Below, piece after piece: positions 32,790-51,854 of a stretch of 64,000 nucleotides of DNA. Position 1 is the first letter of the stretch. Each line of letters starts with the position of its first letter. The position numbers and the translations under genes are program-made. Source of the DNA: a virus; IMG/VR virus record IMGVR_UViG_3300027779_001649, positions 1 through 64,000 of that record; one strand, written 5' to 3'. A model generated the notes under the pieces. That model was not told the origin of the DNA. It saw only the letters and a program-made list of their open reading frames with translations, and did not search any database.

Positions 32790-33725
32790 ATGAATATATT
32801 AAAAGGGCTTATCTTCGTCCTAGCACTAATGATTCCCAATACATTGTATGCCTTAGAACTTGGTACTACAAAAGGTACTGCAAATTACCAAACGGGTATC
32901 GCATTGTCAAAAGTAATCACACAACATGGAGTAAAAATACACCCTGTACCACATAGAGGAACTAATATCTACACAGAACGAGTAAATGTTGGTAAATTAG
33001 ATTTTGCTATTGCGGGTGCATATCATCTATATTGGGCAAGGACAGGGACAGGCCCAGTTAAATATCCCCATAAAAATCTTCGTTTTGTAGCTAATCTACA
33101 AAACTTTAGAACCACATATGCAGTTAGAAATAATTCTAACATTAAGACTTATGAAGATTTAGAGGGTAAAAGAGTACCTTCGGGATTTGCAGGAGCACCA
33201 TCCTTTCATTGGATGATGGAAGCAAATCTAGCAAACGGTGGGTTAACTTGGGACGATGTAACTCCTGTGCCTGTTACTTCATTACCAAAATGTTGGGCTG
33301 GTCTTCAAATTGGTACTATTGATGTTTGCACCTTTGCAATAGGTTCTGGTTCTGCGAAGAAATTTAATATCCTAACTCCAGGCGGTCTGAGAGGTTTAAG
33401 TTCAAATATCGGTCAAAAAGAACAGGATATGTTCAGAAATTGGAAGGGAGTAAGTATTGTTACTCAAAATCCTTCTGATAACTTATCTCTAATAAGGGGT
33501 AAAACTAGAGTCACGCAGTTTTCATATCAGCTTTTCACAAATAAAGATGTGCCTGTTGATGTTGTAAAGGATGTTGTTCTTGCACTATACGAGGGAGGAG
33601 AAGACTTTCAAAAGTCCTCTGGTTTCACTAAGTCCTTTAAAAAGGAAAACATGAACAAGAATGTTACAATTCCTATGCACTCAGGTGCAAAGAAGGCTTA
33701 TAATGAACTTGGACTTTCTGAATAA
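32790..33725 (+). CDS. TAXI-family TRAP solute-binding protein
   Basis: Signal peptide; LGTTKGTANY, NLRFVANL, DLEGKRVP, IPMHSGAKKAYNELGL. Confidence 0.9.
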   Translation: MNILKGLIFVLALMIPNTLYALELGTTKGTANYQTGIALSKVITQHGVKIHPVPHRGTNIYTERVNVGKLDFAIAGAYHLYWARTGTGPVKYPHKNLRFVANLQNFRTTYAVRNNSNIKTYEDLEGKRVPSGFAGAPSFHWMMEANLANGGLTWDDVTPVPVTSLPKCWAGLQIGTIDVCTFAIGSGSAKKFNILTPGGLRGLSSNIGQKEQDMFRNWKGVSIVTQNPSDNLSLIRGKTRVTQFSYQLFTNKDVPVDVVKDVVLALYEGGEDFQKSSGFTKSFKKENMNKNVTIPMHSGAKKAYNELGLSE

Positions 33726-35040
33726 GCTACTAACTGTACTACTTCTTATTGGGGTATCTAACATAGATTTCTATGTTGGGTATCCCTTTATGGATGAACA
33801 GTTATACTTTTTATTACTTCTTGTTAGTTTAAGCTGTATATTTAATAATATACTACTAATTCTAGGAGGAATTATATTATTCTTTGCATATCCCTACTTA
33901 TCTGAATATGCTCTTTCAGAAGTAACGACCTTACGATTACTCGCAATACCTTTACTATCACTTATTTTCTGGAGTTTGTATAGAACCAGTGGTAGGGGGT
34001 TTGCAATTATTTTTGGTCTATTCTTATTATACCCATTTTTAGTATATAATCCAATAAAGGCACTTGACATTTTATCATTCATCGTAATTGATAATACTGC
34101 TATGTTAGGTATCGCAATGTATATAATATGTGGTATAGTGTTTATGTTTGTTATATTTGGACAATTAATGGTGCATATTGGTCTGATTGATAAGTTAATG
34201 TATTATATTACCAGACACATAAAATCCCCTGCTAGGGTTGCAATTATGTCCTCTGCCGTGTTTGGTAGTGTATCTGGTGCAGCAGTATCTAATGTTATGA
34301 GTACAGGACAACTTACAATCCCTCTCATGATAAAATGCGGTTATTCTAAAGTTAAAGCAGCTGCATATGAAGCAGTCGCATCTACTGGAGGACAACTCAT
34401 GCCTCCAATTATGGGTGCAGCTGCATTTCTTATGGCAGAAACTCTATCTATATCATATTGGGAGGTTGTTAGGGTTGCGATAATACCTTCACTCTTATTC
34501 TATTCTATATTACTTTTAACAGTACCCAAGGAAGAAAAAAAACACAGCCCGAGGATTATAAAAAAACGACTTCGGTATCCCCCCCTTGGTCAATTGGTGC
34601 TTGACACGGGTAATATAATGTCTGGACTAATAATTTTAGGCGCAGCTATAGGTTTAATCATAGGAATAATGGATCAAACTGGACTATCTTTCCATATTTC
34701 AACTTATATTATAGAATTATCGGGGGGAAACTCCTTTTTATTACTTTTACTCACTGCAGCTCTCTGTATAGTCCTTGGAATGGGTATGCCAACGGTATCA
34801 ACCTATCTTATTGTTAGTGTTGTCGCAGCCCCTGCATTAGTAGAATCAGGATTTACTGAAATATACGCACATCTTTTTGTATTATATTATGGGTGTTTAT
34901 CTTTAATAACTCCACCAGTTGCAATATGTTCTTTTGCAGCTGCAAAGTTAAGTGGTGCAAATCCTATGGCAGTCTCATTAGAATCTGTATATATTGGGTG
35001 GCCGTTATTTCTAGTTCCATTCCTCTTTATAATGATGTAA
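33703..35040 (+). CDS. TAXI-type TRAP fused permease (DctQM), shortened
   Basis: FGSVSGAAVSNV, EAVASTGGQLMPPIMGAAAFLMAE, LGMGMPT, ITPPVA. Confidence 0.9.
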   Translation: MNLDFLNKLLTVLLLIGVSNIDFYVGYPFMDEQLYFLLLLVSLSCIFNNILLILGGIILFFAYPYLSEYALSEVTTLRLLAIPLLSLIFWSLYRTSGRGFAIIFGLFLLYPFLVYNPIKALDILSFIVIDNTAMLGIAMYIICGIVFMFVIFGQLMVHIGLIDKLMYYITRHIKSPARVAIMSSAVFGSVSGAAVSNVMSTGQLTIPLMIKCGYSKVKAAAYEAVASTGGQLMPPIMGAAAFLMAETLSISYWEVVRVAIIPSLLFYSILLLTVPKEEKKHSPRIIKKRLRYPPLGQLVLDTGNIMSGLIILGAAIGLIIGIMDQTGLSFHISTYIIELSGGNSFLLLLLTAALCIVLGMGMPTVSTYLIVSVVAAPALVESGFTEIYAHLFVLYYGCLSLITPPVAICSFAAAKLSGANPMAVSLESVYIGWPLFLVPFLFIMM

Positions 35041-36204
35041 GAAACCTCTCCAATCGTATTGTTCTATATTGTCTTTGGTTAGTATAGAACCATCATCCAG
35101 TATACCCCAAATTCTGTATGAAGATTTATCTACAACTCTATTTACAAGGTGTTGTCCTCTCAGAAGACTTATCACTTTACCATGACCATATGCATATTCT
35201 TTATCCTTAGTGAATTTGTATATATGGTCACGTAAAGGCATTTTGTAAGTTAAATAATGTTCGTGTTTCATATCATTAACGCAAATGTAAGTATCTGGGT
35301 TGTTTTCATCCATATTCCCAAATATAGTTCCACATGCTTCACGCCATCCTTTTCTATGTTGATTGACCGCCCACTTCTCCATAGGGGGTTGGACATAAAT
35401 CGGCAAATGATTACTCATATCCATTTTATCTCCCTCCCATTCGTAAATATATCTCAGACTTCCTACACACCACTTCTGTTTTCTTTTCGCTTCCCAAGTT
35501 TCATAGATTTGTTGGGGCGAAGTTACATATATGTTTGCAGATTTTCCATTACCGTTAGAACCAAACACTTCATCTGCTGTACCACAGGGACATAGTATAT
35601 GTTTATCTGGTGATGCTTCTTTAAATACATCGTGTGTTGTGTTGATTGTATGGTCTAAATGTTTTACTACTTTATCGTAATAGTCCTGATATTCCGTACT
35701 ATGTCCAATAATAACATGAAGTTGTTCGGGACATACCTCATTTAACGCAATAAGAGCTGCCGTAGAATCTATACCACCAGACCAAAAGAAATCTATAGTC
35801 TTTCCTGTTGATGCAAGAATTTCAGCAGATGCTATCAAAACATCTGTTATATCTAAATTTTCTACTTCGGGGTAATGTTTGTATTCTAACCACGGCATGT
35901 TCAGAGATTTAACAGAACTATTAAATGTATATTGTTGTTCAGTATCTCTGTTTAGAAGTACACCACCATCAAATCCCATTTCATGTAAGGTAACTCGCTC
36001 TTTTCTCCAATCCTGCCATAAATGTTTTATTTCGGGATGTCCTTTGAAAAAAAGGTTATGGGATTTATTGAAGTTATAATAGGCATTAGGGCCTGTCCAA
36101 CTTTCTTTGATGTTGTCTTTAGATACTCCAAAATGAGAATAACTTTTTTCTCTCATATATTTAATAAATGGCCGTCCATAGAAAACCAACCGATACTTAT
36201 CCAT
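35011..36204 (-). CDS. PP-loop ATPase (asparagine synthase C-domain-like), paralog A
   Basis: FFWSGGIDST, GTADEVFG, YKMPLRDHI. Confidence 0.75.
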   Translation of the reverse strand: MDKYRLVFYGRPFIKYMREKSYSHFGVSKDNIKESWTGPNAYYNFNKSHNLFFKGHPEIKHLWQDWRKERVTLHEMGFDGGVLLNRDTEQQYTFNSSVKSLNMPWLEYKHYPEVENLDITDVLIASAEILASTGKTIDFFWSGGIDSTAALIALNEVCPEQLHVIIGHSTEYQDYYDKVVKHLDHTINTTHDVFKEASPDKHILCPCGTADEVFGSNGNGKSANIYVTSPQQIYETWEAKRKQKWCVGSLRYIYEWEGDKMDMSNHLPIYVQPPMEKWAVNQHRKGWREACGTIFGNMDENNPDTYICVNDMKHEHYLTYKMPLRDHIYKFTKDKEYAYGHGKVISLLRGQHLVNRVVDKSSYRIWGILDDGSILTKDNIEQYDWRGFLHHYKEEWN

Positions 36205-36515
36205 TACGATTCTGTTTCAGATCTCTCTAAGTCAATGTTATTTGATACGTTGTGCGTGTCTCTTGCATTTAACATAGACTGTACAGTTTCATCCTCAACC
36301 CAATCATTCTTTGCATCTTGGTTAAGAAATGAGTAGGTAACAGTTTTAACCAAACCATCATCTGATATGGATTCTCCAAGACCACCTATTTTATAGACTC
36401 TTTTACCAGTGTCTATAAAATTAGTTTTAAGATATGCTGTAACATCATCTGTCAGAGAATGCCAAGCTGTATCGGTGTTTGGTCTAGTGAGTTTTATTGT
36501 TCCATTTATTGCCAT
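36204..36515 (-). CDS. ~100-aa family protein, copy 1
   Basis: LTRPNTD.W, ISDDGLV, NARD shared with 46693..46995; AGGAG RBS; TAATG-coupled to the PP-loop gene. Confidence 0.8.
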   Translation of the reverse strand: MAINGTIKLTRPNTDTAWHSLTDDVTAYLKTNFIDTGKRVYKIGGLGESISDDGLVKTVTYSFLNQDAKNDWVEDETVQSMLNARDTHNVSNNIDLERSETES

Positions 36516-38171: not shown

Positions 38172-38477
38172 TTATACTCCAAAACTTTCACCACATCCAC
38201 AACTACTCGTAGATGTTGGATTTTTCACTGTTAGAAAACTACCACCGAGCTCGGTTATATAATCAATCTCACTACCCAAAACGTACATCTCAGCAAGTGG
38301 GTCAACCACAAGAACATCCTCTATAGGCTCAGACCATTCAACATCAGGCAGATTGCTCTTCAGATTCCAGACATACTGGAAACCAGAACATCCTCCACCG
38401 ACAACAGCCAGTGTTACAAAGTCTCCCTTAGATACAGACTTTAAGTAGTCTCTTGCAGATTGTGTTAATGTTACCAT
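38172..38477 (-). CDS. HesB/IscA-family Fe-S carrier protein
   Basis: GGGCSGFQY, CGCGESF. Confidence 0.93.
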   Translation of the reverse strand: MVTLTQSARDYLKSVSKGDFVTLAVVGGGCSGFQYVWNLKSNLPDVEWSEPIEDVLVVDPLAEMYVLGSEIDYITELGGSFLTVKNPTSTSSCGCGESFGV

Positions 38478-38884: not shown

Positions 38885-39265
38885 TTAGTTCACCTCTACT
38901 ATCTCTTGGACTGATGTGGAATGAGAGTTATATGCTTCGCCAAATTCTTCTCTTAATTTGGTACTTATTGTAGTCGCACAATATTTTTTACATACCCTAG
39001 GAGCATTTTGTGGATCTTTTATTAAACCTTCATAAAATTCTGTCCATTCTTTAGAATTAATTATATCGTCAATAGTCTCTACATTACTTAGTTTTAAATG
39101 TTCTTTAAAGAATATTTCTTCAATACCTATATGGTATGTTGGTGTTTGTCCATCAACAGTTTGATAGGGGTCTGTCCAACAACAAGGAATTAAATATCCC
39201 CTTGCAGAATAACCATAACCTTTACCAGATAAACATCTGGGCTCTAATTTTCTTTTTACTGGCAT
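38885..39265 (-). CDS. Stand-alone SPASM/twitch-like Cys-rich protein, partner of 39256..40113
   Basis: PRC...GYLIPCCW...VCKKYC; GAGGAGG SD before MPVKRK. Confidence 0.7.
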   Translation of the reverse strand: MPVKRKLEPRCLSGKGYGYSARGYLIPCCWTDPYQTVDGQTPTYHIGIEEIFFKEHLKLSNVETIDDIINSKEWTEFYEGLIKDPQNAPRVCKKYCATTISTKLREEFGEAYNSHSTSVQEIVEVN

Positions 39266-40113
39266 AATGAACTCCTCCTCAACCACTGTTCTTCATTCCA
39301 AGGAAGTTTATCATCCACATCCTTTACTCTATTATTAACTTCAGTAGTAGTAAATGGTTTGCTACTAATAAAATTTTTTGTATTTTTTGGTTTAAATTCA
39401 TCATCATCTCCTCTCCATCTAGAAGAGTATAATTTTAAAAACCTAATACCAGCATCTGTTGCACGTTTCTGAACCTCATCTATGTGATCTTCATTATAAC
39501 TAAAAACTATGCATTGTTGTTCAACCTGTAACCCCATATATTTAGCTATCATCGCCATTTTCCAAAGTTTTTCACCGTCCTGATTAACTCTATACTTATG
39601 ACTTTCTTCTGGTAATCCATCTATACCAAATCTCCACACTGCTAGGGGATGTATTTCAAATGCCTTTTTATACCACTTCTCTGACCTATGTGAAGCTGCG
39701 GTTGCAATACATGTATAGACTTTTTCTTCATAACATCTACGTAAAATATCGTGGAACTTAGGATGGGCGGTTGGATCTGAAATTTGACCACAAAAAAGAA
39801 TATTAGTAAAATGCATAAGAATCTTATCAAAATCTTCAAGGGACATATCGTGACCAGGCGGTTTCATGCCAGAGGCGGCATAATCCTGTCTCCTACATCT
39901 TGGACAGGCTAGAGGACATCTTGGAGATAAATCTATATTAATTTTAGTACGATACTTCGCTTTATATATTAATTCATCATTAGATAATTTATCGTTTGAT
40001 CCCTTTGTCCAATGATCTCGTTGAGTGAGTATTGGTTTTTTTAAAGACCTTTTAGCTATCTGAGTTCTAAGATCTAGTTCTTTTAACTCACCTTTAGTGT
40101 ATTCTACAGGCAT
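39256..40113 (-). CDS. Radical SAM protein
   Basis: RCPLACPRC, GQISDP, FGIDG, YRVNQD. Confidence 0.9.
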   Translation of the reverse strand: MPVEYTKGELKELDLRTQIAKRSLKKPILTQRDHWTKGSNDKLSNDELIYKAKYRTKINIDLSPRCPLACPRCRRQDYAASGMKPPGHDMSLEDFDKILMHFTNILFCGQISDPTAHPKFHDILRRCYEEKVYTCIATAASHRSEKWYKKAFEIHPLAVWRFGIDGLPEESHKYRVNQDGEKLWKMAMIAKYMGLQVEQQCIVFSYNEDHIDEVQKRATDAGIRFLKLYSSRWRGDDDEFKPKNTKNFISSKPFTTTEVNNRVKDVDDKLPWNEEQWLRRSSLCQ

Positions 40114-41930: not shown

Positions 41931-42749
41931 TTATCCTACATGAAACATTATTGGGGGTTCATTACTTAATATCGTTGTTTCTATTTCTCTAATTTCTTCC
42001 TGAGCTTGTGTAAAGATAGCTGCACCATCCATACTAACACCCCCCAGCATCGTAACTCCATTGAACTTAGAAAGATTTGCACCCCATTGACGTTTAATTA
42101 AAGCTGTTGCATATCTTTTTAGATGGATGTCATCATAAATGTCTGTGTAAACTGAGGGATCTAATTTACGGAAACACTCTATAACAACATAGTCCTCTCC
42201 ACCCACAAAGTCTGTAGACCAATCGGCGTCAATATATAAACGATTTTGATGTTCCTTAAAACGAATAGGAGCTTCACCAACAAGAATATGTTCTAGTAAA
42301 TCTAAATTATTCATCATCATCTGGTAATGGATAACAGAAGTGGAAGTCAGATCAAACAAATCGTTTAGATGTAACTGATAACGAGCATCAAACATATTTG
42401 CACCAGTTCCAGTTCCAGTTAAAGGAAATACCTGTACTACAGAGATAACTGAACTAGGTAATGGTATATAATTATTACCCTCAGACCAATCTGCGGTAAT
42501 AGTATCATCTACTGTATCTGTTCCTGTAGTGGTTGTATTTGTTTTAGCTCTAGTAACTTCTGCTTCAGTAACCAAATGTTTGAGATACATTCTTTCAACA
42601 CCATCATAATGATACTGTGCAAAATACTGTAGTGCTTCGTCAATACGGTCATCTGTTTGGTCATCTGACACATTAATGTCAATCACTCCATAACCCAATG
42701 CTCGTAGACAATAAGTCTTAAATGTTGCTTTTGTTGTTGGTACTGCCAT
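41931..42749 (-). CDS. gp13: Neck protein
   Basis: YCLRALG, INVSDDQ, KRQWGANLSKF. Confidence 0.93.
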   Translation of the reverse strand: MAVPTTKATFKTYCLRALGYGVIDINVSDDQTDDRIDEALQYFAQYHYDGVERMYLKHLVTEAEVTRAKTNTTTTGTDTVDDTITADWSEGNNYIPLPSSVISVVQVFPLTGTGTGANMFDARYQLHLNDLFDLTSTSVIHYQMMMNNLDLLEHILVGEAPIRFKEHQNRLYIDADWSTDFVGGEDYVVIECFRKLDPSVYTDIYDDIHLKRYATALIKRQWGANLSKFNGVTMLGGVSMDGAAIFTQAQEEIREIETTILSNEPPIMFHVG

Positions 42750-42768
42750 AATTCCCTACCTTTTACTA

Positions 42769-42776
42769 TATTTATA
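42769..42776 (-). promoter_or_regulatory. T4-type late promoter (gp13)
   Basis: TATAAATA about 20 nt upstream of gp13. Confidence 0.8.
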
Positions 42777-43275
42777 AAAGAAGAGGTCTGGTTACTACGC
42801 AATTATCATCATCAAAGTAACTCTGTTTGACGAAATTTACCCCAGTATATGCGTATAAAGCACTCAATTTTGGATATGACCATATAATTTCACATCCTCT
42901 TTTTCTTCCATAATCCATAGTCTCATTTAATAACCAAGTTGATAGACCTAATCCTCTATGTTTAGGATGTACCCATAACCCCCTAGACCTATAAATTTTA
43001 AGTCCACATTGAGATCCTGAGTTAACACCCACTATTTCTTCATATGATTCTCCATAATGACTAACGTATTTTATTGCTATAAAGACAGAAGTTTTGAGAT
43101 ACCTTTTAATATCTAACTGTCTTATAACTTTATTTCCCTCCAAAGCCCATGTACTATGGGGATAAATGGTTTTCTTATTTTTCCATAAGTCCGACTTCCA
43201 TACCTTATATATCTCCTCAAACGACACGGGTTCTAGATAGTACAGCTTATTTTCCCCAGTAATAATCTGCGGCAT
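42772..43275 (-). CDS. GNAT acetyltransferase
   Basis: RSRGLWVHPKHRGLGLS motif A; start uncertain. Confidence 0.8.
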   Translation of the reverse strand: MPQIITGENKLYYLEPVSFEEIYKVWKSDLWKNKKTIYPHSTWALEGNKVIRQLDIKRYLKTSVFIAIKYVSHYGESYEEIVGVNSGSQCGLKIYRSRGLWVHPKHRGLGLSTWLLNETMDYGRKRGCEIIWSYPKLSALYAYTGVNFVKQSYFDDDNCVVTRPLLL

Positions 43276-44323
43276 AATTATAAGGAGTAAATGCTTTGTT
43301 CTTATAAGGAACTACTTTACTTGCCCATTTCTTTTGACTCGCAAGAACTTTCCGAAACCATTTGTTCTTTTTGGATTCTTCTTTAAACATAATATCTATG
43401 GTTTTCAATTCTGCAACAAGAATATCAGGTGGTGTCTTCATGATACGCACCCCATGCTTTTCAACCATTCTTGATAACGCTCTTGCGTTTTCGGATTGTA
43501 TCCAAGTGAGCCACCACAGATAGGACTCATATGCAGCAGAACGCACTGAGGCACGTTGAGAGTCAGATAGACTCCTCCAGATACCACCATTAATAAGAAG
43601 GTCACCAGTATTACTATGTTCATGTAAACTATTTAGATAGTAATATTTCCAGATAGTTGGAAACCCTAGTCTTTCATCTTCTAATCCACCGACAAATTCT
43701 GCACAGTTGATTACACCTTTCTGTCCAGCAGCAAGAATCTCTCCACCAGGCATACCAATAGTCTGCATACCCATACGAGCATATAGTTCTACATTAATGC
43801 CTGTCTGTCTGCACTTAAAGTTTTTAAGGTCTGCAAGGTTTTCAATTGGACGATGGAACCACCCCAAAGGTTGATTCTGAGTAGGCATAACAGGGAAAGG
43901 GACTACATCCAGTTTCAACACTTCTTGATAAAATGTACGATACATCTCTAGTCCACCACCGTGAAACATCCATCCAAGAAAATCAATACCATCCATTCCA
44001 TATGGGCCTCCTAAAGGAGAGTTAAATAGTCCTAGAGTTTTATCCTTACCCACCCAATAATAACTCTGTGTCCATGCACCTCCCACAGCACCAGATGCTG
44101 TTGCATCAAGAACTTGAAAGGCTGGGACTAAAGCACCAGCAGGTTTAATCTCCATCAGAACTTTACCATCAGTTAGAACTTTAACTTTATCTGCAATGAA
44201 CTTTGCTTGTTCATTGAAAGTACTAACAGCAGGATAAGAACTTGCGATTAAGATTTTTGTGCCCGCAGATGCAGGGGAAAAGGTTAATAGGATGGCAGCC
44301 GCAGCCATATAAATATATTTCAT
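43247..44323 (-). CDS. dctP: TRAP solute-binding protein (TakP/FcbT1-like)
   Basis: Signal peptide ending ASA; PAGALVPAFQVLDA, YYWVGK, GWFHRPI, KCRQTG, CAEFVG. Confidence 0.92.
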   Translation of the reverse strand: MKYIYMAAAAILLTFSPASAGTKILIASSYPAVSTFNEQAKFIADKVKVLTDGKVLMEIKPAGALVPAFQVLDATASGAVGGAWTQSYYWVGKDKTLGLFNSPLGGPYGMDGIDFLGWMFHGGGLEMYRTFYQEVLKLDVVPFPVMPTQNQPLGWFHRPIENLADLKNFKCRQTGINVELYARMGMQTIGMPGGEILAAGQKGVINCAEFVGGLEDERLGFPTIWKYYYLNSLHEHSNTGDLLINGGIWRSLSDSQRASVRSAAYESYLWWLTWIQSENARALSRMVEKHGVRIMKTPPDILVAELKTIDIMFKEESKKNKWFRKVLASQKKWASKVVPYKNKAFTPYNYAADYYWGK

Positions 44324-44349
44324 GATTACTCCTTATTCAAATCACTTCT

Positions 44350-45594
44350 CTAGTTATTTAGGTACGTTGGTAACCACGTTGCTATACTAGGAATCATAAA
44401 AATAATTATCACAGCAAGTACCTGTATCCACATAAACGGCATCATACCTTTAAATATCATACCCAAATCCCATTCTGGAACGACCTGTTTTATATAATAT
44501 GATGTTAACGCAACGGGTGGTGTTAAGTAGGCAGTCTGTATAACTATCCCTAAACAAACTGCAAACCATAACATATCCACACCAGAACTAATAAGAACTG
44601 GTAAGAATATGGGAACAAATACCAACACTACCACAGGCCATTCAAACGGCCATCCCAATAGATGACATAGTACTAGTATACAACCGACTAATGCCCAAGG
44701 GGGTATTGGTAAAGAATTTAAGGTGTCCACTATCACGTTATCGCCGCCTAGTGCAGTAAAGACCGCACCAAATATTGTGGAGGAGATTGCGAGTAGCATA
44801 ACCACAGCAGAAGTGTCTGTAGTTTTTAATAGAGTTTCTTTCAGTTCTAACTTACCGTTTAACAATGCAAGAACTAATGCACCGAAAGCACCAAACGCAC
44901 CAGCTTCTGTAGACGTTGCAAGTCCAAATAACATAGAACCTAACACAGTAGATATAAGAACTGCTAGAGGGATAACATCTATTAAAACTCTACGATAGTC
45001 TGGTGTCTCTTGTTGTTTGGGTACAGAATGAAATAGACAGTATATCGCATACATTGATGCAATCATTAATCCTGGCACTAATGCTCCAGCATAAAGATCA
45101 ATAATACTAAGGTTCATAGTAGGAGCCATAACTATAAGAGGAACGGATGGTGGTATCATAATAAGAGAACCACCACCAGCAATAACTCCTGCCGTCAATT
45201 TCGGATTGTAACCTAGTTTCATCATATGAGGAGCTGCCATAATACCAAGTAATGTTACAGACGCACCAACTACTCCTGTCGCAAGACTTATCAATACTGC
45301 AATAACAATAACAACTAAGTTAAGATTACCAACTATAGTTTTCATACTATAGAATAGTTTCTCAACTAATCCTGCCTTTTCGCAAATATAACCCATGAAT
45401 ATAAACATAGGTATAGCCATGAATACTTCGTTTGATAATGCGCCGACTAAGTTATAGTACGCAAGATCAAATACATTCTCCCCCATAGAGAGAAATCCAA
45501 AACCTAATGCTAGAAATATAAGAGTGAAAGCTACAGGTAAACCCAAAAATATACCTATAATCATAGTCACTAACATCACAATCGCAAGCAACAC
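44350..45594 (-). CDS. dctM: TRAP large permease
   Basis: GLPVAFTL, AIPMFIFMG, MIPPS, TSTEAGAFG, QTAYLTPP. Confidence 0.93.
   Translation of the reverse strand: MLLAIVMLVTMIIGIFLGLPVAFTLIFLALGFGFLSMGENVFDLAYYNLVGALSNEVFMAIPMFIFMGYICEKAGLVEKLFYSMKTIVGNLNLVVIVIAVLISLATGVVGASVTLLGIMAAPHMMKLGYNPKLTAGVIAGGGSLIMIPPSVPLIVMAPTMNLSIIDLYAGALVPGLMIASMYAIYCLFHSVPKQQETPDYRRVLIDVIPLAVLISTVLGSMLFGLATSTEAGAFGAFGALVLALLNGKLELKETLLKTTDTSAVVMLLAISSTIFGAVFTALGGDNVIVDTLNSLPIPPWALVGCILVLCHLLGWPFEWPVVVLVFVPIFLPVLISSGVDMLWFAVCLGIVIQTAYLTPPVALTSYYIKQVVPEWDLGMIFKGMMPFMWIQVLAVIIIFMIPSIATWLPTYLNN
44355..44362 (-). promoter_or_regulatory. Possible late promoter variant CCTAAATA (dctP)
   Basis: About 30 nt upstream of the dctP start. 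Confidence 0.4.
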
Positions 45595-46019
45595 TTCCTC
45601 ACTTCCTGTACACCATATATCAATAACAAAATTAATCCTAAAGTAATAGAAAATTTATATGGCCATATTATTAATTGCGTCATTGTATTGGAACTCTTTT
45701 CCCATATAGAAATGCTTCTAAAACTATCCATTGCAGAATAGTACGTGAGAATACCAATAGAGGGAAAGAATAGACAGTAACCTAGAAGATCTATGATTGA
45801 TTTTGTTCTATCTGAAAAGTTCTTCCAGTAGATATCTGTTCGTATGTGAGTTCCTTTGGAAAGACTATAACTAGCACCTAATATAATTAATGCGCCATAT
45901 AATTGTGGTACGATATCAACAGCAAAGTCAAATCTTAAATCAAAAAAAAATCTACCTAGAACATTGGTAACAGTTAGTAAAACGATTCCCAAAACAAACC
46001 ATGAATATATTTTAATCAT
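45576..46019 (-). CDS. dctQ: TRAP small permease
   Basis: NVLGRFFF, LGASYSLSKGTHIRTD, four hydrophobic segments. Confidence 0.9.
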   Translation of the reverse strand: MIKIYSWFVLGIVLLTVTNVLGRFFFDLRFDFAVDIVPQLYGALIILGASYSLSKGTHIRTDIYWKNFSDRTKSIIDLLGYCLFFPSIGILTYYSAMDSFRSISIWEKSSNTMTQLIIWPYKFSITLGLILLLIYGVQEVRKCCLRL

Positions 46020-46700
46020 CTACTTCTTAATTTGCATATGAGCATTAAAACTCATACTCCTTCTTTCACCTTTAACATGAAATGGATAGACAAAGTGTTT
46101 TAAATAGGACGGAAAAACTAATAACTTTCCAACCTCTGGTTTAAATTTTACACCATCACTTCGCATATCACAAGCCTCTCCATACATAAATTCAATCAAA
46201 CCATTCGCAGGGTAATGGTCTTCACCATCCTCTTGATATTCTCCTTCCATCTCATCAGGTAATTTTAAATAGATGACGGCTGAAAAGTCACCACTATGTT
46301 TATGCCAAGGATTATACTCCCCAGCATATTGACTGACTATCCAGCTCTGTGTTAAATGGATGTTATCTAATTGGGGAACAGTACTATGTCCTGACATCTT
46401 GTACCAATTATATGCTCTATTCTTGTCTCTTATATAATTTAGGTAGTCCAGACATCCCCTCTTCATAGTATCAGAGAGATACTTCTTATCATCATCAGAG
46501 GAAATTGGTATCTGAATTTCCTTATGAACCTTGCCTACCAGATTATCAGACCAATCCCATTGAGCACTTTGTTGCTCACTACTTAGTATCTTGTCTCCAA
46601 CCTTATTTACAATTTTAACGAACGTCTCTGGTACAGAGGTTTCTAAAATCGTAGGACTGAATACTTCATGCCAAATCTTATCCCCTCTTATCTTAGTCAT
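46020..46700 (-). CDS. Putative 2OG-Fe(II) oxygenase (TIGR02466-like)
   Basis: YNPWHKH, SAVIYLKLP, FPSYLKHFVYPF, RRSMSFN. Confidence 0.85.
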   Translation of the reverse strand: MTKIRGDKIWHEVFSPTILETSVPETFVKIVNKVGDKILSSEQQSAQWDWSDNLVGKVHKEIQIPISSDDDKKYLSDTMKRGCLDYLNYIRDKNRAYNWYKMSGHSTVPQLDNIHLTQSWIVSQYAGEYNPWHKHSGDFSAVIYLKLPDEMEGEYQEDGEDHYPANGLIEFMYGEACDMRSDGVKFKPEVGKLLVFPSYLKHFVYPFHVKGERRSMSFNAHMQIKK

Positions 46701-46995
46701 CTATTTCTTCATTTGCGGCAGATGCGGTTATCTCATTTTCAATACAGTAAATATCTCTTGCATTAAAAAACTCTTGGGCATCTGCTTCTTCGTTAAAATT
46801 AAATCTACTTTCATAAGTATCAAATAATGCTATTGCCGTCATTACCAAACCATCGTCTGAAATTATCTTAGAGACAATTCGCCGTTTTCCTGACTTATCA
46901 TATTTCCAACTAAGTGTATGAAATTTTTCTGACATTGGATACCATTCAACATCTGTGTTCGGACGGGTTAAAGTATACGTTTGTTTAACACTCAT
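46693..46995 (-). CDS. ~100-aa family protein, copy 2
   Basis: LTRPNTDVEW, SGKR, ISDDGLV, NARD; AAGGAG RBS. Confidence 0.8.
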   Translation of the reverse strand: MSVKQTYTLTRPNTDVEWYPMSEKFHTLSWKYDKSGKRRIVSKIISDDGLVMTAIALFDTYESRFNFNEEADAQEFFNARDIYCIENEITASAANEEIDD

Positions 46996-47692
46996 TTAAA
47001 TTGTTCTCCTTTACTGGGCTTCGTCTATTATAAAATACTTTTCCTTCAGAACTTATTCCATAGACACACCCCTGTTCATATTTATATGTTCTAATCATAT
47101 GATTACTCATCTGGGGGCCTCTCTCTATGTATTTGTTGTTTGCCCAACCCTCAAATGATGGATGCAGATAAAATGGTTGAAAATTTTCTATAGGAAAAGA
47201 ATCCCCTTGAAAATTACTAAGAACATTCCAAGATTGTGTTAAAAGGAAATATCTAACTCTCTCTTTCCACCGTCTATCCACAAAGGTAAACAGAGTACTG
47301 TATTCATGGGGAGTAACAACTACCCGTGTCAGTATACGAGGATTATTTATATTAAATTTAAATAATTGATCTGAAGGACATACTTCTTTAAGATATTTTG
47401 AGACAACATCATCCTCATACACCTCTATCTCCTTGTCCATATCTCTTAACTTACAGGCCCTTTCGTAACATAATTGTGTAAATCCTTTATCATCTAGATC
47501 ATTATTATATTCATATGGTGGAGATTTGTAGTATGTACCATCCATTTCAAATGGGGTATCAATAAACTCACCCTCTTTGTCATTCACATAACTGTAGGAC
47601 GGTTGACCATACTTAATAATCAAGTCATGTTCTTTTATACTCTTCGCAGATTTGACATTGCGTAGCTCTGGTGTAACATAAACAAATTTCAT
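46985..47692 (-). CDS. Degenerate PP-loop paralog lacking SGGxDS (paralog C)
   Basis: RACKLRDMDKEIEVY, LKEVCP, RYFLLTQS, ENFQPFY align to 50697..51854. Confidence 0.7.
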   Translation of the reverse strand: MKFVYVTPELRNVKSAKSIKEHDLIIKYGQPSYSYVNDKEGEFIDTPFEMDGTYYKSPPYEYNNDLDDKGFTQLCYERACKLRDMDKEIEVYEDDVVSKYLKEVCPSDQLFKFNINNPRILTRVVVTPHEYSTLFTFVDRRWKERVRYFLLTQSWNVLSNFQGDSFPIENFQPFYLHPSFEGWANNKYIERGPQMSNHMIRTYKYEQGCVYGISSEGKVFYNRRSPVKENNLNEC

Positions 47693-49097: not shown

Positions 49098-49657
49098 ACG
49101 GAAAAAATATGCCTAAATGGCACAGGAATGATGATTTTCTACATGACCTTGCTATATCATTGGTAGAAGTTCATACCAGAGAACCTCAGAACGAACCAGA
49201 AACAAATATGTTTAAGATAGCAGATGGTCTTGATACCTCTGATCCATTTGTTAAGGAAGCAGTAAGGCACTTCAATGTAATAAGAGAAGACTTAGCATGT
49301 AAGAGTGCAGTTCTACATGGTGATTTGTGGAACGAGAATATAATCATAAAAGAAAATGGTAGATTATCAGGACTGATTGATTGGGAACACACTCAAATAG
49401 GCGACCCTCATTGGGACTTCCGTATGATTAGAAGATTTATAGGCTGGGACGATTTACATTGGCTTATCACTTTGTATAATGCTAAGGCTCAATATAAAAT
49501 TAATTCTGCTACTATTTACATCTTAGATAAACTAGCACTTTGCCATCAGTATCAATATAGACTAAGAAAAAATGATAGCCCTCTTTGGAACGACACCGCA
49601 TTATTTAAAGAGTATATGGAAAGATGGCCAGTGTGCGTTAATGAAATATCCGACTAG
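49085..49657 (+). CDS. APH/choline-kinase-like phosphotransferase (C-lobe only)
   Basis: LHGDLWNENI, GLIDWE, GDPHWDF. Confidence 0.8.
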   Translation: MVWIDGKNMPKWHRNDDFLHDLAISLVEVHTREPQNEPETNMFKIADGLDTSDPFVKEAVRHFNVIREDLACKSAVLHGDLWNENIIIKENGRLSGLIDWEHTQIGDPHWDFRMIRRFIGWDDLHWLITLYNAKAQYKINSATIYILDKLALCHQYQYRLRKNDSPLWNDTALFKEYMERWPVCVNEISD

Positions 49658-50237
49658 AACATATAACTTTTATAATAAGCCTATTAATCTAGATATAGTT
49701 CCCAGATGCACCCTCCTTTGTTCCAAGTGTATGAGACAATCAGATTTTTATAAGTTTGTAGATAAAAGTAAATTAGAAGAGATAAGTATAAAAGACTACG
49801 AAAAGATTCTCAACTGTTTTTCATATGTTGAATGGTGTGGTCAAACTGGTGACCCCATATTTCATACTAAATTCTTTACTCTTCTTGAGATGAGCAGGGG
49901 TACTAAATTAGACATCCATACTGCCGCCTCACATAAACCTAAAGAATGGTATAAGAAAGCATTTAAAACTAATAAAGATGCAAAGTGGATATTTGGGGTA
50001 GATGGGTTACCAAAGGACAGCCATATCTATAGAATAAATCAAGATGGTGAATTCCTATTTGAAGTTATGAAAATGGGATCAGATATGGGTTTAGAGATTC
50101 AGTGGCAGATGATAAAGTTTAAGTATAATCAAAATAACATAGATGAAGTAATGCAGCTCTGTAGAGATAATTCTATCAGTTTTAAATTAATAAGATCCTC
50201 AAGGTTCGTATCAGATGACCCACTCAGACCAATTTAA
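49641..50237 (+). CDS. Radical SAM protein, paralog of 39256..40113
   Basis: RCTLLCSKC, GQTGDP, TAASHK..WYKKAF, FGVDGLP, YRINQDGE. Confidence 0.88.
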   Translation: MKYPTRTYNFYNKPINLDIVPRCTLLCSKCMRQSDFYKFVDKSKLEEISIKDYEKILNCFSYVEWCGQTGDPIFHTKFFTLLEMSRGTKLDIHTAASHKPKEWYKKAFKTNKDAKWIFGVDGLPKDSHIYRINQDGEFLFEVMKMGSDMGLEIQWQMIKFKYNQNNIDEVMQLCRDNSISFKLIRSSRFVSDDPLRPI

Positions 50238-50715
50238 ACCAAGATGTATATCAGGACAATGTTTAGGGCATTCTAATAAGGGGTACTTAGTTCCTTGTTG
50301 TTTTGTAGATGCATTTTATGATAATATTGAGAAAAAGAAACTCATACATCATGATAACGATAAACTTAATGCATTGTGGGATACATCCTTAAAAATTTCC
50401 AATAATAACCATATACATGATATAACAATGAGTGATATATGGATGGATTTTTATACCATGTTACAGGATAAAGATCAAGAGAAACCTTTAATGTGTATTA
50501 AGTGTTGTGACCCTGTATATACTAAGGAGTTAAAAGAAGGTGAAATAGCTCCAACACGATTTAGCCAGAAGACTAATCCAGTACATGCTGTCAGCAGAAG
50601 AAGTACAGAAGTAACTCATGTGATAAAGATTAATAGTATGTCAGTAAATGATGAACTTTTGGTGATGACCTCATCTGGCCGACCTAAGCCAAAAGATTAT
50701 AAACAAAGAGAATGA
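50215..50715 (+). CDS. Stand-alone SPASM/twitch-like Cys-rich protein
   Basis: PRCISG...GYLVPCCF...MCIKCC. Confidence 0.7.
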   Translation: MTHSDQFKPRCISGQCLGHSNKGYLVPCCFVDAFYDNIEKKKLIHHDNDKLNALWDTSLKISNNNHIHDITMSDIWMDFYTMLQDKDQEKPLMCIKCCDPVYTKELKEGEIAPTRFSQKTNPVHAVSRRSTEVTHVIKINSMSVNDELLVMTSSGRPKPKDYKQRE

Positions 50716-51854
50716 CGGTCAAGATAATCCATGATGTTATCCTTATGAACTATCGTTCCATCATTAACAATCGCCTTCACCCTAAAATCATTAGGTAATG
50801 GTGAGTAGAACTCTTTCTGAGCTCTTCCTTCCATCAATCTAGTTTTTCCTATACCATATGCAAATTCCCTATCATATAATGCAATGAAGTCTCTCAACAT
50901 CATCTTTGCTTTCTGGAATCTTTCTGGGTCACTCCTAGGACTGTGATTATACCAAAACATATTTCTATTATAATGTTGATTAATTGACCACTTGTGTATA
51001 TCTGGATCTCTAAAGAACGGCTGATAATTTTCTAGGTCAATCTCATCTGCTTTTATATTTTGTAAGAAACGGAATGACTGTGTGATGAATGTATACCGTG
51101 TTATTGTCCACCACATTTCATAATTCCATTCCTCATTTTCTGGGTCATCTAGATTTGGTTTCTTTCTTGGGTCTATTGCATACCCCAATGGTTTGTTGGG
51201 ATCACGAACTGCGTCATCTACTTGTGGGGGGTAACCGACACTACCAAACAATCTATCAGCTTCGCACCCACTAGTATAAACATTAATATCTGGATTCGCC
51301 ATACCATAAATGTTTCCTGTCATATCTAAACGATGCGGGCCTTTAATAACATAATCTTCCCATAACTTGGGATAATGTTTAATAACTGCGTCACCTCCAG
51401 CAATGATATGCAGCTGTTCTCTAGGACAAACTTCTTTCAGTGCGTATAACATAGCAGTACTATCTACACCACCAGAATAGAATACCTCAATATGTTTACC
51501 CATATCTCTTAATTCTTCTGCACGTTTAATCATAAGGTCATTAAAGTCTGCGTTCTCTACCTCTGGATAATATTTGTAATCCAAAACAGGATAATACTTT
51601 TCCATATTATCCATATTAAACACATATTCATCTACACCCAAAGAATCACTTATGTATGAACTCTTAGGACGATGGCAATATTGAGTCATAAATTCTTCAC
51701 GTTGTCTCGCTTCCTTATACTCTTCAAAGAACTCTTTCTCAAATTCAGGCCATCCGTACTGTCCCTTTCTAGGCGCACCTTTAACAACCTTATCCATAGC
51801 CCTTCTGAAGTCATCAGAAATATATACATACTTAATTGTGCTTTTCATAGTCAC
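50697..51854 (-). CDS. PP-loop ATPase (asparagine synthase C-domain-like), paralog B
   Basis: VFYSGGVDST, SGCEADRLFG, QPFF, KMMLRDFI. Confidence 0.75.
   Translation of the reverse strand: MTMKSTIKYVYISDDFRRAMDKVVKGAPRKGQYGWPEFEKEFFEEYKEARQREEFMTQYCHRPKSSYISDSLGVDEYVFNMDNMEKYYPVLDYKYYPEVENADFNDLMIKRAEELRDMGKHIEVFYSGGVDSTAMLYALKEVCPREQLHIIAGGDAVIKHYPKLWEDYVIKGPHRLDMTGNIYGMANPDINVYTSGCEADRLFGSVGYPPQVDDAVRDPNKPLGYAIDPRKKPNLDDPENEEWNYEMWWTITRYTFITQSFRFLQNIKADEIDLENYQPFFRDPDIHKWSINQHYNRNMFWYNHSPRSDPERFQKAKMMLRDFIALYDREFAYGIGKTRLMEGRAQKEFYSPLPNDFRVKAIVNDGTIVHKDNIMDYLDRHSLCL

What the first reader, a model, noticed from the sequence alone, without database searches (positions are those of the whole stretch)
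43247..46019. Complete dctQMP TRAP transporter inside a lytic phage structural region
All three subunits are intact, translationally close-packed and flanked by phage genes (gp13 on one side, a phage-type oxygenase on the other). Their AT-rich composition looks like the rest of the window. DctP has a signal peptide, retains the Arg in KCRQTG and resembles the TakP/FcbT1 subfamily. Phage nutrient-uptake genes usually cited are pstS or single carriers, so a whole tripartite secondary transporter is unusual.
Basis: partly seen in the sequence, partly recalled or inferred. Interest (0 to 1): 0.75.

Follow-up and report, generated by a model that had tools for sequence, protein, structure and literature searches.

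The report
Phage-carried complete TRAP organic-acid importer
An uncultured marine T4-like phage carries all three intact genes of a bacterial-type TRAP importer for small keto acids, from a transporter lineage so far seen only on phage contigs, so the virus probably gives infected cells its own nutrient uptake system.

Summary
Confirmed. Window 43247-46019 (minus strand) holds intact dctQ, dctM and dctP (Pfam 4.9e-19, 7.6e-60, 2.2e-27). They sit among T4-type genes (gp13/14/15, TerL, portal, capsid) of an 88.8-kb IMG/VR virus record.

It is not a chimera. The cassette recurs on 21 other IMG/VR contigs, beside different phage genes. Logan contigs of other studies bridge the gp13-side junction.

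DctP falls in a clade that holds every phage row and no named bacterium (SH-aLRT 97). Named bacterial relatives reach at most 55% identity. dN/dS is 0.05-0.17.

The nearest structures are 2-oxoacid binders, 7UG8 and TakP. All five TakP ligand side chains are invariant, but two pocket residues are polar in 43 of 43 clade rows. Clade DctM lacks one Gly in the Na1 loop in 67 of 67 rows against 0 of 52 bacterial rows.

The cassette is accessory: 1 of 16 closest relatives has it at this slot. The window also holds a TAXI-TRAP pair and a leaderless DctP. Expression, substrate and host are untested.

This scan had already noted the cassette in other phage genomes. I found no paper on it.

The parts
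45576..46019 (-). dctQ, small TRAP membrane subunit (147 aa)
   Evidence: PF04290 4.9e-19, residues 12-141 on profile 1-127/132. Three hydrophobic segments score at least 1.6 and a fourth (37-53) is weaker by eye. 55-80% identical in 12 phage loci. dN/dS 0.10-0.17 in the 5 of 12 comparisons where dS was defined. No PDB sequence match.
44350..45594 (-). dctM, large TRAP permease subunit (414 aa)
   Evidence: PF06808 7.6e-60. Aligns over residues 14-410 with PpSiaM 7qha_B residues 11-420 of 427. Twelve hydrophobic segments. Na2-site and acidic-residue equivalents are kept; one Gly is missing from the Na1 loop. It lacks the C-terminal tail of the bacterial homologues. dN/dS 0.07-0.15.
43247..44323 (-). 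dctP, periplasmic solute-binding subunit (358 aa) with signal peptide
   Evidence: PF03480 2.2e-27. PDB 7ug8 7.6e-41 and TakP 2hzk 1.4e-38. AF2 model pLDDT 87.4, TM 0.84/0.91 to 7UG8 and 0.84/0.89 to 2HZL. R172, Y89, Q151, E209 and E235 are invariant in 43 of 43 clade rows. dN/dS 0.05-0.13.
46020..46700 (-). 2OG-Fe(II) oxygenase directly upstream; its stop abuts the dctQ start (TAGATG)
   Evidence: PF13759 1.7e-17 and phrog_81 2.8e-28; junction. The gene is absent at this place in L005, so it is not a fixed part of the cassette.
42772..43275 (-). GNAT acetyltransferase directly downstream; the called start overlaps the dctP end
   Evidence: PF00583 5.2e-8. Present after dctP in L003, L004 and L005. 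A TATAAATA overlaps its stop, 20 nt before the gp13 ATG.
46693..47692 (-). Upstream pair: degenerate PP-loop-family gene (46985-47692) and a ~100-aa protein (46693-46995). It holds the nearest same-strand TATAAATA motifs (47079-47086, 47344-47351).
   Evidence: Cluster 3 and cluster 10 membership; motifs. The same pair directly precedes dctQ in L005.
41931..42749 (-). gp13-type head-tail adaptor, the phage structural anchor of the locus
   Evidence: phrog_211 4.4e-39. Followed by gp14 (PF11649 2.5e-28) and gp15 (PF16724 5.5e-84).

Best explanation
dctQ, dctM and dctP encode a complete and functional TakP-type TRAP transporter. It is carried as an accessory (moron-like) cassette by an uncultured marine T4-like myovirus of the pelagimyophage/Melnitz group. 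The proposed mechanism follows. During infection DctP is exported by its Sec signal peptide into the host periplasm. There it traps a small 2-oxo (or 2-hydroxy) carboxylic acid together with a cation, using R172, Y89, Q151, E209 and E235. It then docks on DctQM in the inner membrane, which moves the acid inward on the Na+ gradient. The infected oligotrophic cell thereby gains a high-affinity uptake route for an organic acid, which supplies carbon, energy or 2-oxoacid pools for phage production. Two polar pocket residues fixed in the clade (Q86, N238), where TakP and the bacterial relatives have V/I and P/V/S/T, suggest a ligand with a polar tail rather than TakP's aliphatic 2-oxoacids. Shown here: gene integrity, family and subfamily assignment, phage context in independent assemblies, a clade holding only phage and unnamed metagenome rows, purifying selection, and conserved ligand and Na2 residues. 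Inferred: expression, export, transport, substrate and benefit to the phage.
For: All three Pfam families match over full length. DctM is collinear with the solved PpSiaM. DctP's nearest solved structures are the 2-oxoacid binders 7UG8 and TakP, and all five TakP ligand side chains named in PMC1839085 section 7 are invariant in 43 of 43 clade rows. dN/dS against the window is 0.053-0.125 for P (14 of 17 comparisons with defined dS), 0.070-0.145 for M (14 of 17) and 0.103-0.166 for Q (5 of 12). The cassette occurs on 21 other IMG/VR contigs. Seven of these show T4-type structural genes within the fetched flanks, in different arrangements. Four of 5 long records tested hold a T4-like TerL. DctP stays 75-78% identical in records whose TerL is only 31-59% identical. 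GC3 matches the phage genes. In relatives, TATAAATA lies within 200 nt upstream of dctQ in 3 of 12 loci and of dctP in 3 of 14, against a background of 0.026 per 200 nt.
Against: There is no expression evidence. In this window no TATAAATA lies within 200 nt upstream of any of the three genes; the nearest are about 1.06 and 1.3 kb upstream inside another ORF. The sigma-70-like scan shows no excess (40 found, 40.4 expected). The cassette is dispensable: only 1 of 16 closest TerL relatives with at least 3 kb upstream of gp13 has it at that slot. The whole clade lacks one Gly of the Na1-site loop (67 of 67 rows, 0 of 52 bacterial rows), and the effect on ion coupling is unknown. NCBIfam subfamily cut-offs are not reached (NF037995 46.9 against 50; TIGR00786 217.6 against 268.45; no hit for DctQ). 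If the genes are transcribed late with the virion genes, little time would remain for an importer to pay off. The host is unknown.
Confidence: 0.6

Rival explanations
1. The transporter works, but its job is to supply a specific precursor to a phage-encoded tailoring pathway rather than general nutrition. That pathway would include PP-loop AsnB-like carboxylate-adenylating enzymes, a ~100-aa partner protein, 2OG oxygenases, a GNAT and radical SAM/SPASM pairs. For example, it could import 2-oxoglutarate for the many 2OG oxygenases, or an acid that the PP-loop enzymes ligate.
For: A PP-loop family (SGGxDS nearly invariant; Foldseek top hits carbapenam synthetase 6.4e-4 and AsnB 1.5e-3) occurs in 9 of 14 loci. 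It lies just upstream of dctQ in four of them: L006 (5 tandem copies), L011 (3), and L005 and the window (with the ~100-aa protein). In the window a second PP-loop plus small-protein pair abuts the TAXI-TRAP. A 2OG oxygenase stop abuts dctQ. The polar Q86/N238 pocket could suit a polar or dicarboxylic 2-oxoacid.
Against: The linkage is not general. In L007, L009, L013, L014 and L023 the genes beside dctQ are other kinds: NMO, DnaB-like helicase, fatty-acid desaturase paralogues, DAHP-synthase family plus radical SAM. The 2OG gene is missing at this place in L005. The four loci with direct linkage all come from one phage subgroup (TerL at least 77%). No positive residue was found that could pair with a second carboxylate. 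The PP-loop assignment rests on weak scores (model pLDDT 62).
Confidence: 0.22
2. The proteins have a role other than import. The periplasmic binding protein could serve as a sensor, a sponge or a superinfection barrier, with DctQM only as its anchor.
For: These phages carry several DctP-family copies (1-4 per record in 5 records). They include leaderless forms that lack the carboxylate Arg, so these cannot work as classical receptors.
Against: This DctP keeps its signal peptide and every ligand side chain. DctM and DctQ are under the same purifying selection as DctP. DctM keeps the Na2-site and acidic-residue equivalents.
Confidence: 0.05
3. The cassette is a functionless passenger picked up from a host and on its way to decay.
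For: It is absent from 15 of 16 closest relatives at this slot and from the cultured relative Melnitz in the region compared.
Against: All three genes are intact in every locus where they are complete. dN/dS is about 0.1. Composition has fully adjusted to the phage. The clade is deep, 72-99% identity within it and at most 55% to named bacteria, and has its own fixed signatures.
Confidence: 0.04
4. Assembly chimera or cellular contamination: bacterial TRAP genes wrongly joined to phage DNA.
For: All four Logan runs break their contigs at 46043-46064, just inside the 2OG gene.
Against: That break lies outside the cassette, in a stretch with several alternative continuations (loose ends). X1 (possibly the source) has one 3675-nt contig across 42390-46064 with no differences. 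X2, from another study, has contigs across 42612-43373 and 45188-46064. X7, a vent metagenome, has a 3973-nt contig across 41900-44419. Seven other IMG/VR contigs show the cassette beside T4-type genes.
Confidence: 0.02

Closest known systems
TakPQM of Rhodobacter sphaeroides (TakP = SmoM; PDB 2HZK/2HZL)
   Same: Three-part DctPQM-type TRAP. The binding proteins share a fold (TM 0.84/0.89, 29% identity; phmmer 1.4e-38 over residues 8-350). Arg, Tyr, Gln and two Glu that hold Na+-pyruvate in TakP (PMC1839085 section 7) are all kept. The C-terminal helical extension aligns.
   Different: TakP pocket residues V97, P243, F40 and V245 correspond to Q86, N238, Y30 and G240 in the phage protein, so the pocket is more polar and probably larger. 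TakP W215 corresponds to F210. The gene is carried by a phage. Whether the phage protein forms TakP's helix-swapped dimer was not tested.
Synechococcus CC9311 ketoacid-binding solute receptor (PDB 7UG8, alpha-ketovalerate plus Ca2+)
   Same: Best sequence match (7.6e-41) and best fold match (TM 0.84/0.91, rmsd 2.0, 30% identity). It is a marine, cation-mediated 2-oxoacid binder.
   Different: It is a cellular protein. Identity is only 30%. I found no paper on it, so I could not compare its ligand contacts.
Sialic-acid TRAP membrane units PpSiaQM/HiSiaQM (7QHA, 8B01, 7QE5, 8THI)
   Same: DctM is collinear over its full length with PpSiaM. Equivalents of the Na2-site residues (G314, A355, T358, V361), of P150 (P149) and of the pocket acid D521/E329 (E318) are present.
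   Different: Identity is low. The phage clade lacks the Gly equivalent to PpSiaM G145 in the Na1 loop. The position of D304/D112 is Ser, as in the bacterial TakM-type relatives. DctQ has no detectable PDB sequence match.
Bacterial 'TRAP-type mannitol/chloroaromatic compound transport system' proteins of Burkholderiales and other MAGs
   Same: Nearest named homologues: DctP 46-55%, DctM 47-51%, DctQ 34-38% identity, in the same Q-M-P gene order.
   Different: The bacterial DctM carries a roughly 70-aa C-terminal tail and a longer loop, has the Na1-loop Gly and has Ser where the phage clade has T358. The bacterial DctP has W at the F210 position and V/I at Q86.
Single-component phage uptake genes such as cyanophage pstS (recalled, not searched here) and Bug/TTT-type binding proteins of uncultured Caudovirales in BFVD
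   Same: Phage-borne periplasmic binding proteins thought to boost host uptake.
   Different: Those are binding proteins that must use a host transporter. Here the phage brings the membrane unit as well. None of the three genes matches any PHROG family at E<=0.001. tblastn of 50,697 GenBank phage records found only 2 (DctP) and 3 (DctM) short unannotated records, at 24-27% identity.

Membership tests
TRAP transporter, DctPQM type | P subunit of the DctP family (PF03480) | tested here: met
   96.6 bits against a cut-off of 23.4.
TRAP transporter, DctPQM type | Full-length M subunit (PF06808, about 12 membrane segments) | tested here: met
   203.3 bits over profile 1-412/413. Collinear with 7qha_B residues 11-420 of 427. 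Twelve hydrophobic segments.
TRAP transporter, DctPQM type | Q subunit (PF04290, four membrane helices) | tested here: met
   69 bits against a cut-off of 28.3. Three strong hydrophobic segments plus one weaker segment by eye.
TRAP transporter, DctPQM type | Exported binding protein (signal peptide) | tested here: met
   The N-terminus has the K, hydrophobic-core and A-S-A pattern, and all viral relatives printed show the same pattern. This was read by eye; no predictor was run.
TRAP transporter, DctPQM type | Conserved Arg that pairs with the substrate carboxylate | tested here: met
   R172 aligns with TakP R177 and is invariant in 43 of 43 viral and 37 of 37 bacterial rows.
TRAP transporter, DctPQM type | Two Na+ sites in the M subunit | tested here: inconclusive
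   Na2 equivalents are present. At Na1, S103, T106, I147 and P149 are present, but the Gly145 equivalent is deleted in 67 of 67 clade rows. Most contacts are backbone carbonyls, so sequence alone cannot decide.
TRAP transporter, DctPQM type | NCBIfam subfamily models reach their curated cut-offs | tested here: not met
   NF037995 46.9 against 50; TIGR00787 21.3 against 175.05; TIGR00786 217.6 against 268.45; no model hit DctQ. These are divergent members.
TRAP transporter, DctPQM type | Binding-protein-dependent, ion-driven uptake | not testable with these tools
   Needs proteoliposome or whole-cell transport assays.
TakP-like cation-mediated 2-oxo/2-hydroxy acid binders | Closest solved structures belong to this group | tested here: met
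   7UG8, 2HZK/2HZL, 4YZZ/4YIC and the lactate binder 2ZZV top both the sequence and fold searches.
TakP-like cation-mediated 2-oxo/2-hydroxy acid binders | Cation ligands Gln, Glu, Glu plus the Tyr hydrogen bond | tested here: met
   Q151, E209, E235 and Y89 are invariant in 43 of 43 rows.
TakP-like cation-mediated 2-oxo/2-hydroxy acid binders | Hydrophobic pocket for an aliphatic chain (TakP Y99, F40, V97, V245, A212, A213, P243, T153, I47) | tested here: not met
   The phage protein has Q86 at V97, N238 at P243, G240 at V245 and Y30 at F40. Q86 and N238 are fixed in 43 of 43 clade rows.
TakP-like cation-mediated 2-oxo/2-hydroxy acid binders | Helix-swapped dimer through the C-terminal helix | tested here: inconclusive
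   The alignment to TakP runs to residue 350, and the model has C-terminal helices 321-344 and 350-356. The oligomeric state was not modelled.
Phage auxiliary metabolic gene | Encoded on a bona fide phage genome, not a cellular contaminant | tested here: met
   T4-type capsid, portal, sheath, tube, protease, gp13/14/15 and TerL are present. Independent contigs show the same linkage.
Phage auxiliary metabolic gene | Expressed during infection and alters host metabolism | not testable with these tools
   Needs metatranscriptomes of infected cells or a cultured phage-host pair.

The most novel reading that the evidence does not exclude
Marine T4-like phages have evolved their own lineage of TRAP transporters, marked by a tail-less DctM with a remodelled Na1 site and a polar TakP-type pocket. 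They deploy it together with TAXI-TRAP pairs and leaderless DctP paralogues. Together these would form a phage-built network that imports and handles a specific polar 2-oxoacid (for example 2-oxoglutarate or a related acid). The acid would feed phage-encoded PP-loop ligases, 2OG oxygenases and a GNAT that modify a small phage protein or virion component. On this reading it is a virus-run metabolic pathway from uptake to product, not a simple nutrient booster.
Probability: 0.15. Interest if true: 0.85.

Novelty: new variant of a known kind. Interest (0 to 1): 0.65.

Why it matters
Phage uptake genes discussed in the literature I know of are single binding proteins such as PstS. Here a virus carries a whole secondary transporter, both receptor and membrane unit. 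It belongs to a deep lineage, so far seen only on phage contigs, that has moved between T4-like phages whose terminases are only 31-59% identical. If it works, infected cells of oligotrophic marine bacteria take up an organic acid through a viral protein machine. That bears on how viral infection reshapes the flux of dissolved organic carbon. The clade's fixed changes give concrete, testable handles on TRAP ion coupling and substrate choice: loss of one Gly in the Na1 loop, a tail-less DctM, and Q86 and N238 in the pocket. Its patchy distribution marks it as niche-adaptive cargo rather than core equipment.

Tried and rejected
Host inference from TRAP phylogeny failed. The pattern scan of 185,579 species genomes gave at best 52% identity (a Lake Pavin proteobacterial MAG), Burkholderiales MAGs at 46-48% and Pelagibacteraceae at about 30%. 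The 5.8-billion-protein search showed a gap between the 62-100% group and named bacteria at 55% or less. P0030, the 62% outlier, could not be placed as viral or cellular: it is not itself in IMG/VR and stands alone in the tree.

No RNA holder was listed, so expression could not be examined. Runs X3 and X7 gave no cover over about 45392-45973; I draw nothing from that.

TATAAATA is not enriched in the window as a whole (14 found, 10.1 expected). Sigma-70-like sites are at expectation and terminator-like sites are near it (7 found, 4.0 expected). I therefore make no promoter or terminator claim for the window itself.

DctQ has no PDB sequence match at E<=1. BLASTP of DctP against the orphan DctP gave no significant alignment. 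The PP-loop family gave only weak sequence evidence: Pfam Asn_synthase in 1 of 14 members at 0.0013 and LarE at 0.036. Its model has mean pLDDT 62, so I call it AsnB-like with reserve. The ~100-aa protein has no Pfam match.

Six literature searches and term searches within four papers (passages only) found no description of a phage-encoded TRAP transporter. The library holds only CC-licensed PMC papers and bioRxiv, and supplementary tables were closed. Lists of auxiliary genes in supplements could name such hits. A search for 7UG8 found no paper.

Not used: complex prediction (P with QM is a textbook pair, so a pass would not move my odds), the search of protein representatives, the protein-atlas search, metagenome-contig scans and VIA-align.

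For the tree I dropped identical rows and used every third of P0031-P0120 (30 of 90). For the neighbourhood clustering I used 13 of the 21 loci plus window 36-52 kb, leaving out near-duplicates.


Full report
THE OBSERVATION

Three co-oriented ORFs on the minus strand match the stated coordinates exactly: dctQ 45576-46019 (147 aa), dctM 44350-45594 (414 aa) and dctP 43247-44323 (358 aa). Each matches its Pfam family far above the cut-off: PF04290 at 4.9e-19, PF06808 at 7.6e-60 over profile positions 1-412 of 413, and PF03480 at 2.2e-27. The stricter NCBIfam subfamily models stay below their curated cut-offs, and none hits DctQ, so these are divergent members.

The genes are tightly packed. The stop codon of the upstream 2OG oxygenase abuts the dctQ ATG, dctQ and dctM overlap, and AAGGAG lies 7 nt before the dctP ATG. 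GC3 is 0.26-0.29, inside the 0.22-0.31 range of the structural genes.

The surroundings are those of a T4-type virion module:
- gp13 adaptor, gp14 neck, gp15 sheath stabiliser and TerL.
- Major head protein, portal, sheath, tube and prohead protease.

The window is bases 1-64000 of an 88,823-bp IMG/VR virus record, with completeness estimated at 49%. TerL is 68.7% identical to Methylophilales phage Melnitz and 67.5% to Pelagibacter phage HTVC008M. The gene order gp13-gp14-gp15...TerL-sheath-tube-portal...capsid is that of Melnitz, which has no TRAP genes in the region compared.

NOT A CHIMERA

A scan of IMG/VR with DctP returned 21 other loci from different metagenomes, 75-99% identical.

In 7 of the 21, the fetched flanks show the cassette beside T4-type structural genes, and the neighbours differ:
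- L003, L004 and L005 have dctP-GNAT-gp13, as in the window.
- L005 has no 2OG gene before dctQ.
- In L006 dctP is followed directly by TerL.
- In L007 the cassette follows the capsid gene.
- In L011 and L012 about 3 kb of other genes separate dctP from the GNAT and gp13.

Five long records behind the remaining loci were tested. Four have a T4-like TerL (59, 34, 33 and 31% identity) and 3 have gp15. In a slightly different set of five (L014, L020, L023, L017, L013), 3 have the capsid protein. The 228-kb record behind L014 matched none of these.

Logan contigs give the same picture:
- X1, possibly the source sample, has one 3675-nt contig across 42390-46064 with no differences.
- X2, from another study, has contigs across 42612-43373 and 45188-46064.
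- X7, a hydrothermal-vent metagenome, has a 3973-nt contig across 41900-44419 with 163 differences. That is a roughly 93% identical relative with the same gp13-GNAT-dctP-dctM order.

All runs break at 46043-46064, 24-45 nt inside the 2OG gene, where several alternative continuations were seen. This looks like a branch point in a conserved oxygenase motif, not a junction of the cassette.

A PHAGE LINEAGE OF THE TRANSPORTER

Among 5.8 billion proteins, DctP homologues form a group at 62-100% identity. After a gap come named bacterial proteins at 55% or less, from Burkholderiales, Rokubacteria and Betaproteobacteria, annotated 'TRAP-type mannitol/chloroaromatic compound transport system'. DctM shows the same gap: 56-95%, then 51% or less.

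In a tree of 82 rows, the window, all 15 other IMG/VR rows and 27 unnamed metagenome rows form one clade (SH-aLRT 97). It is apart from the 37 bacterial rows; P0030 stands alone. The unnamed rows could include cellular sequences.

DctP stays 75-78% identical in records whose TerL is only 31-59% identical and whose capsid protein is 35-36% or 68% identical. The cassette has therefore moved between distant T4-like phages, or is far more constrained than their core genes.

It is accessory. Of the 80 closest TerL relatives (79-90%), 16 have at least 3 kb upstream of gp13, and only 1 of these carries the cassette there. That one, L039, is the same contig as L005.

The cassette is absent from cultured phages as far as I could search. 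No PHROG family matched. In 50,697 GenBank phage records, tblastn found only 2 and 3 short unannotated records at 24-27% identity. BFVD holds no full-length relative. Its best matches are Bug/TTT-type binding proteins of uncultured Caudovirales and one 162-aa fragment labelled DctP/TeaA.

INTACT AND UNDER SELECTION

Nei-Gojobori dN/dS against the window:
- DctP: 0.053-0.125 (14 of 17 comparisons; dS saturated in 3).
- DctM: 0.070-0.145 (14 of 17).
- DctQ: 0.103-0.166 (5 of 12).

The least saturated pairs give 0.056 (L003, dS 0.085) and 0.071 (L004, dS 0.22). Many of the other dS values exceed 1, so those ratios are rough.

HOW IT PROBABLY WORKS

DctP's best solved relatives are a Synechococcus ketoacid-binding protein (7UG8, with alpha-ketovalerate and Ca2+) and TakP of Rhodobacter sphaeroides. 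This holds by sequence (7.6e-41 and 1.4e-38) and by fold (model pLDDT 87.4; TM 0.84/0.91 and 0.84/0.89).

In TakP, pyruvate is held by R177 and Y100, and by a Na+ ion bound to Q156, E214, E240 and the W215 carbonyl (PMC1839085, section 7). I mapped these by hand from the printed alignment. They correspond to R172, Y89, Q151, E209, E235 and F210. The five side-chain ligands are invariant in 43 of 43 clade rows and in 37 of 37 bacterial rows.

The pocket that fits TakP's aliphatic chain is changed. TakP V97 corresponds to Q86 and P243 to N238, in 43 of 43 clade rows. The bacterial relatives have V/I/W and V/S/T/I/A at those places. V245 corresponds to G240 and F40 to Y30. I infer a 2-oxo or 2-hydroxy acid with a polar tail. 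This is inference only.

DctM aligns over its full length with PpSiaM. I used the Na+-site residues given for HiSiaQM and PpSiaQM (PMC10942642, section 8).
- The Na2 equivalents (G314, A355, T358, V361) and the pocket acid (E318) are present.
- The Na1 equivalents S103, T106, I147 and P149 are present.
- The Gly corresponding to PpSiaM G145 is deleted in 67 of 67 informative clade rows and in 0 of 52 bacterial rows.

The window's DctM also lacks the roughly 70-aa C-terminal tail of the bacterial homologues and has a shorter loop. These are signatures of the clade, and their effect is unknown.

EXPRESSION

I have no RNA evidence. In the window the nearest same-strand TATAAATA motifs lie 1.06 and 1.3 kb upstream of dctQ, inside ORF 46985-47692, and another sits just before gp13. 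In relatives the motif lies within 200 nt upstream of dctQ in 3 of 12 loci and of dctP in 3 of 14 (at -74 to -81). The background is 0.026 per 200 nt. That hints at late transcription in some lineages.

CONTEXT

A family with a nearly invariant SGGxDS motif has Foldseek top hits to carbapenam synthetase and asparagine synthetase B. The scores are weak and the model's mean pLDDT is 62. This family occurs in 9 of 14 loci. It lies just upstream of dctQ in L006 (five tandem copies), in L011 (three), and in L005 and the window together with a ~100-aa protein.

Elsewhere the genes beside the cassette are different: nitronate monooxygenase-like, DnaB-like helicase, five fatty-acid desaturase paralogues, or a DAHP-synthase-family gene plus a radical SAM gene. 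The cassette is therefore a self-contained module. A dedicated link to the PP-loop enzymes is possible but not general.

THE SAME WINDOW HOLDS MORE TRAP PARTS

- A TAXI binding protein (32790-33725; TIGR02122 at 102 bits, over its cut-off) with a short fused permease (33661-35040; TIGR02123 at 325 bits, over its cut-off; 459 aa against a profile of 615). The pair is present in 9 of 38 close relatives that have enough sequence after TerL.
- A leaderless DctP paralogue (26214-27281; PF03480 2.4e-24). It has Val where the carboxylate Arg should be. In other phages this paralogue sits directly after dctP.

COMPARISON AND VERDICT

By its parts this is a DctPQM-type TRAP transporter of the TakP-like subfamily. 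It differs from every described member that I could find in four ways: it is carried by phages, its DctM has no tail, its Na1 loop is one residue shorter, and its pocket is polar. I rate it a new variant of a known kind.

Earlier notes of this scan report the same cassette in other phage genomes, and two follow-ups reached the same reading. I re-derived the main points independently here. Six literature searches found no paper on phage-encoded TRAP transporters. The library is partial and supplements were closed.

My odds:
- Working importer that serves general uptake: 0.6.
- Importer dedicated to a phage tailoring pathway: 0.22.
- All other readings together: about 0.1.

Noticed in passing
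window 32790-35040 (+): A second, TAXI-type TRAP. The binding protein has a signal peptide (TIGR02122, 102 bits, over cut-off). The overlapping fused permease is only 459 aa against a 615-position profile (TIGR02123, 325 bits, over cut-off). It lies inverted between TerL and the sheath gene. It is present in 9 of 38 close TerL relatives with at least 2.5 kb after TerL. No PHROG match.
   Followed up: partly
window 26214-27281 (-): An orphan DctP-family protein (PF03480 2.4e-24) with no hydrophobic N-terminus and Val at the carboxylate-Arg position. It lies between the head genes, next to a nitroreductase (25541-26203). It gives a weak hit to phrog_31178. Relatives sit directly downstream of dctP in L007, L011, L015, L018 and L021.
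   Followed up: partly
window 35011-36204, 46985-47692, 50697-51854 (-); L006:2280-8265; L011:1732-5245: A family of PP-loop proteins (SGGxDS) without a glutaminase domain. It has no Pfam hit at 0.01 and its fold is nearest to carbapenam synthetase and AsnB. It forms tandem arrays of 3-5 copies directly upstream of dctQ in two relatives.
   Followed up: partly
window 36204-36515 and 46693-46995 (-): Two paralogous ~100-aa proteins (33% identical, shared T-R-x-x-T and N-x-R motifs). Each lies next to a PP-loop gene, and each pair lies next to a TRAP system. No Pfam match.
   Followed up: partly
window 38885-40113 (-) and 49572-50715 (+): Two radical SAM plus SPASM-like gene pairs. The first pair is supported by Pfam. 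The second is assigned only by clustering with the first. An IscA-like Fe-S assembly protein lies at 38172-38477 (PF01521).
   Followed up: no
window 46035-46072: All four Logan runs end or branch their contigs here, inside the 3' end of the 2OG oxygenase gene, with several different continuations. It is probably a motif shared by many oxygenase paralogues and strains.
   Followed up: no
L014:3252-7392: Five tandem fatty-acid-desaturase-like paralogues (PF00487 2.2e-13 for the first) lie directly upstream of dctQMP. The locus is in a 228-kb viral record that has no T4-like TerL, gp15 or capsid match.
   Followed up: no
L023:5773-8183: A DAHP-synthase-family gene (PF00793 4.9e-53) and a 494-aa radical SAM gene lie directly upstream of dctQ in a 154-kb T4-like record.
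   Followed up: no
BFVD hits: Uncultured Caudovirales in UniProt carry Bug/TTT-type binding proteins, the receptor family of the tripartite tricarboxylate transporters. Phages therefore hold receptors of more than one binding-protein-dependent secondary transporter class.
   Followed up: no
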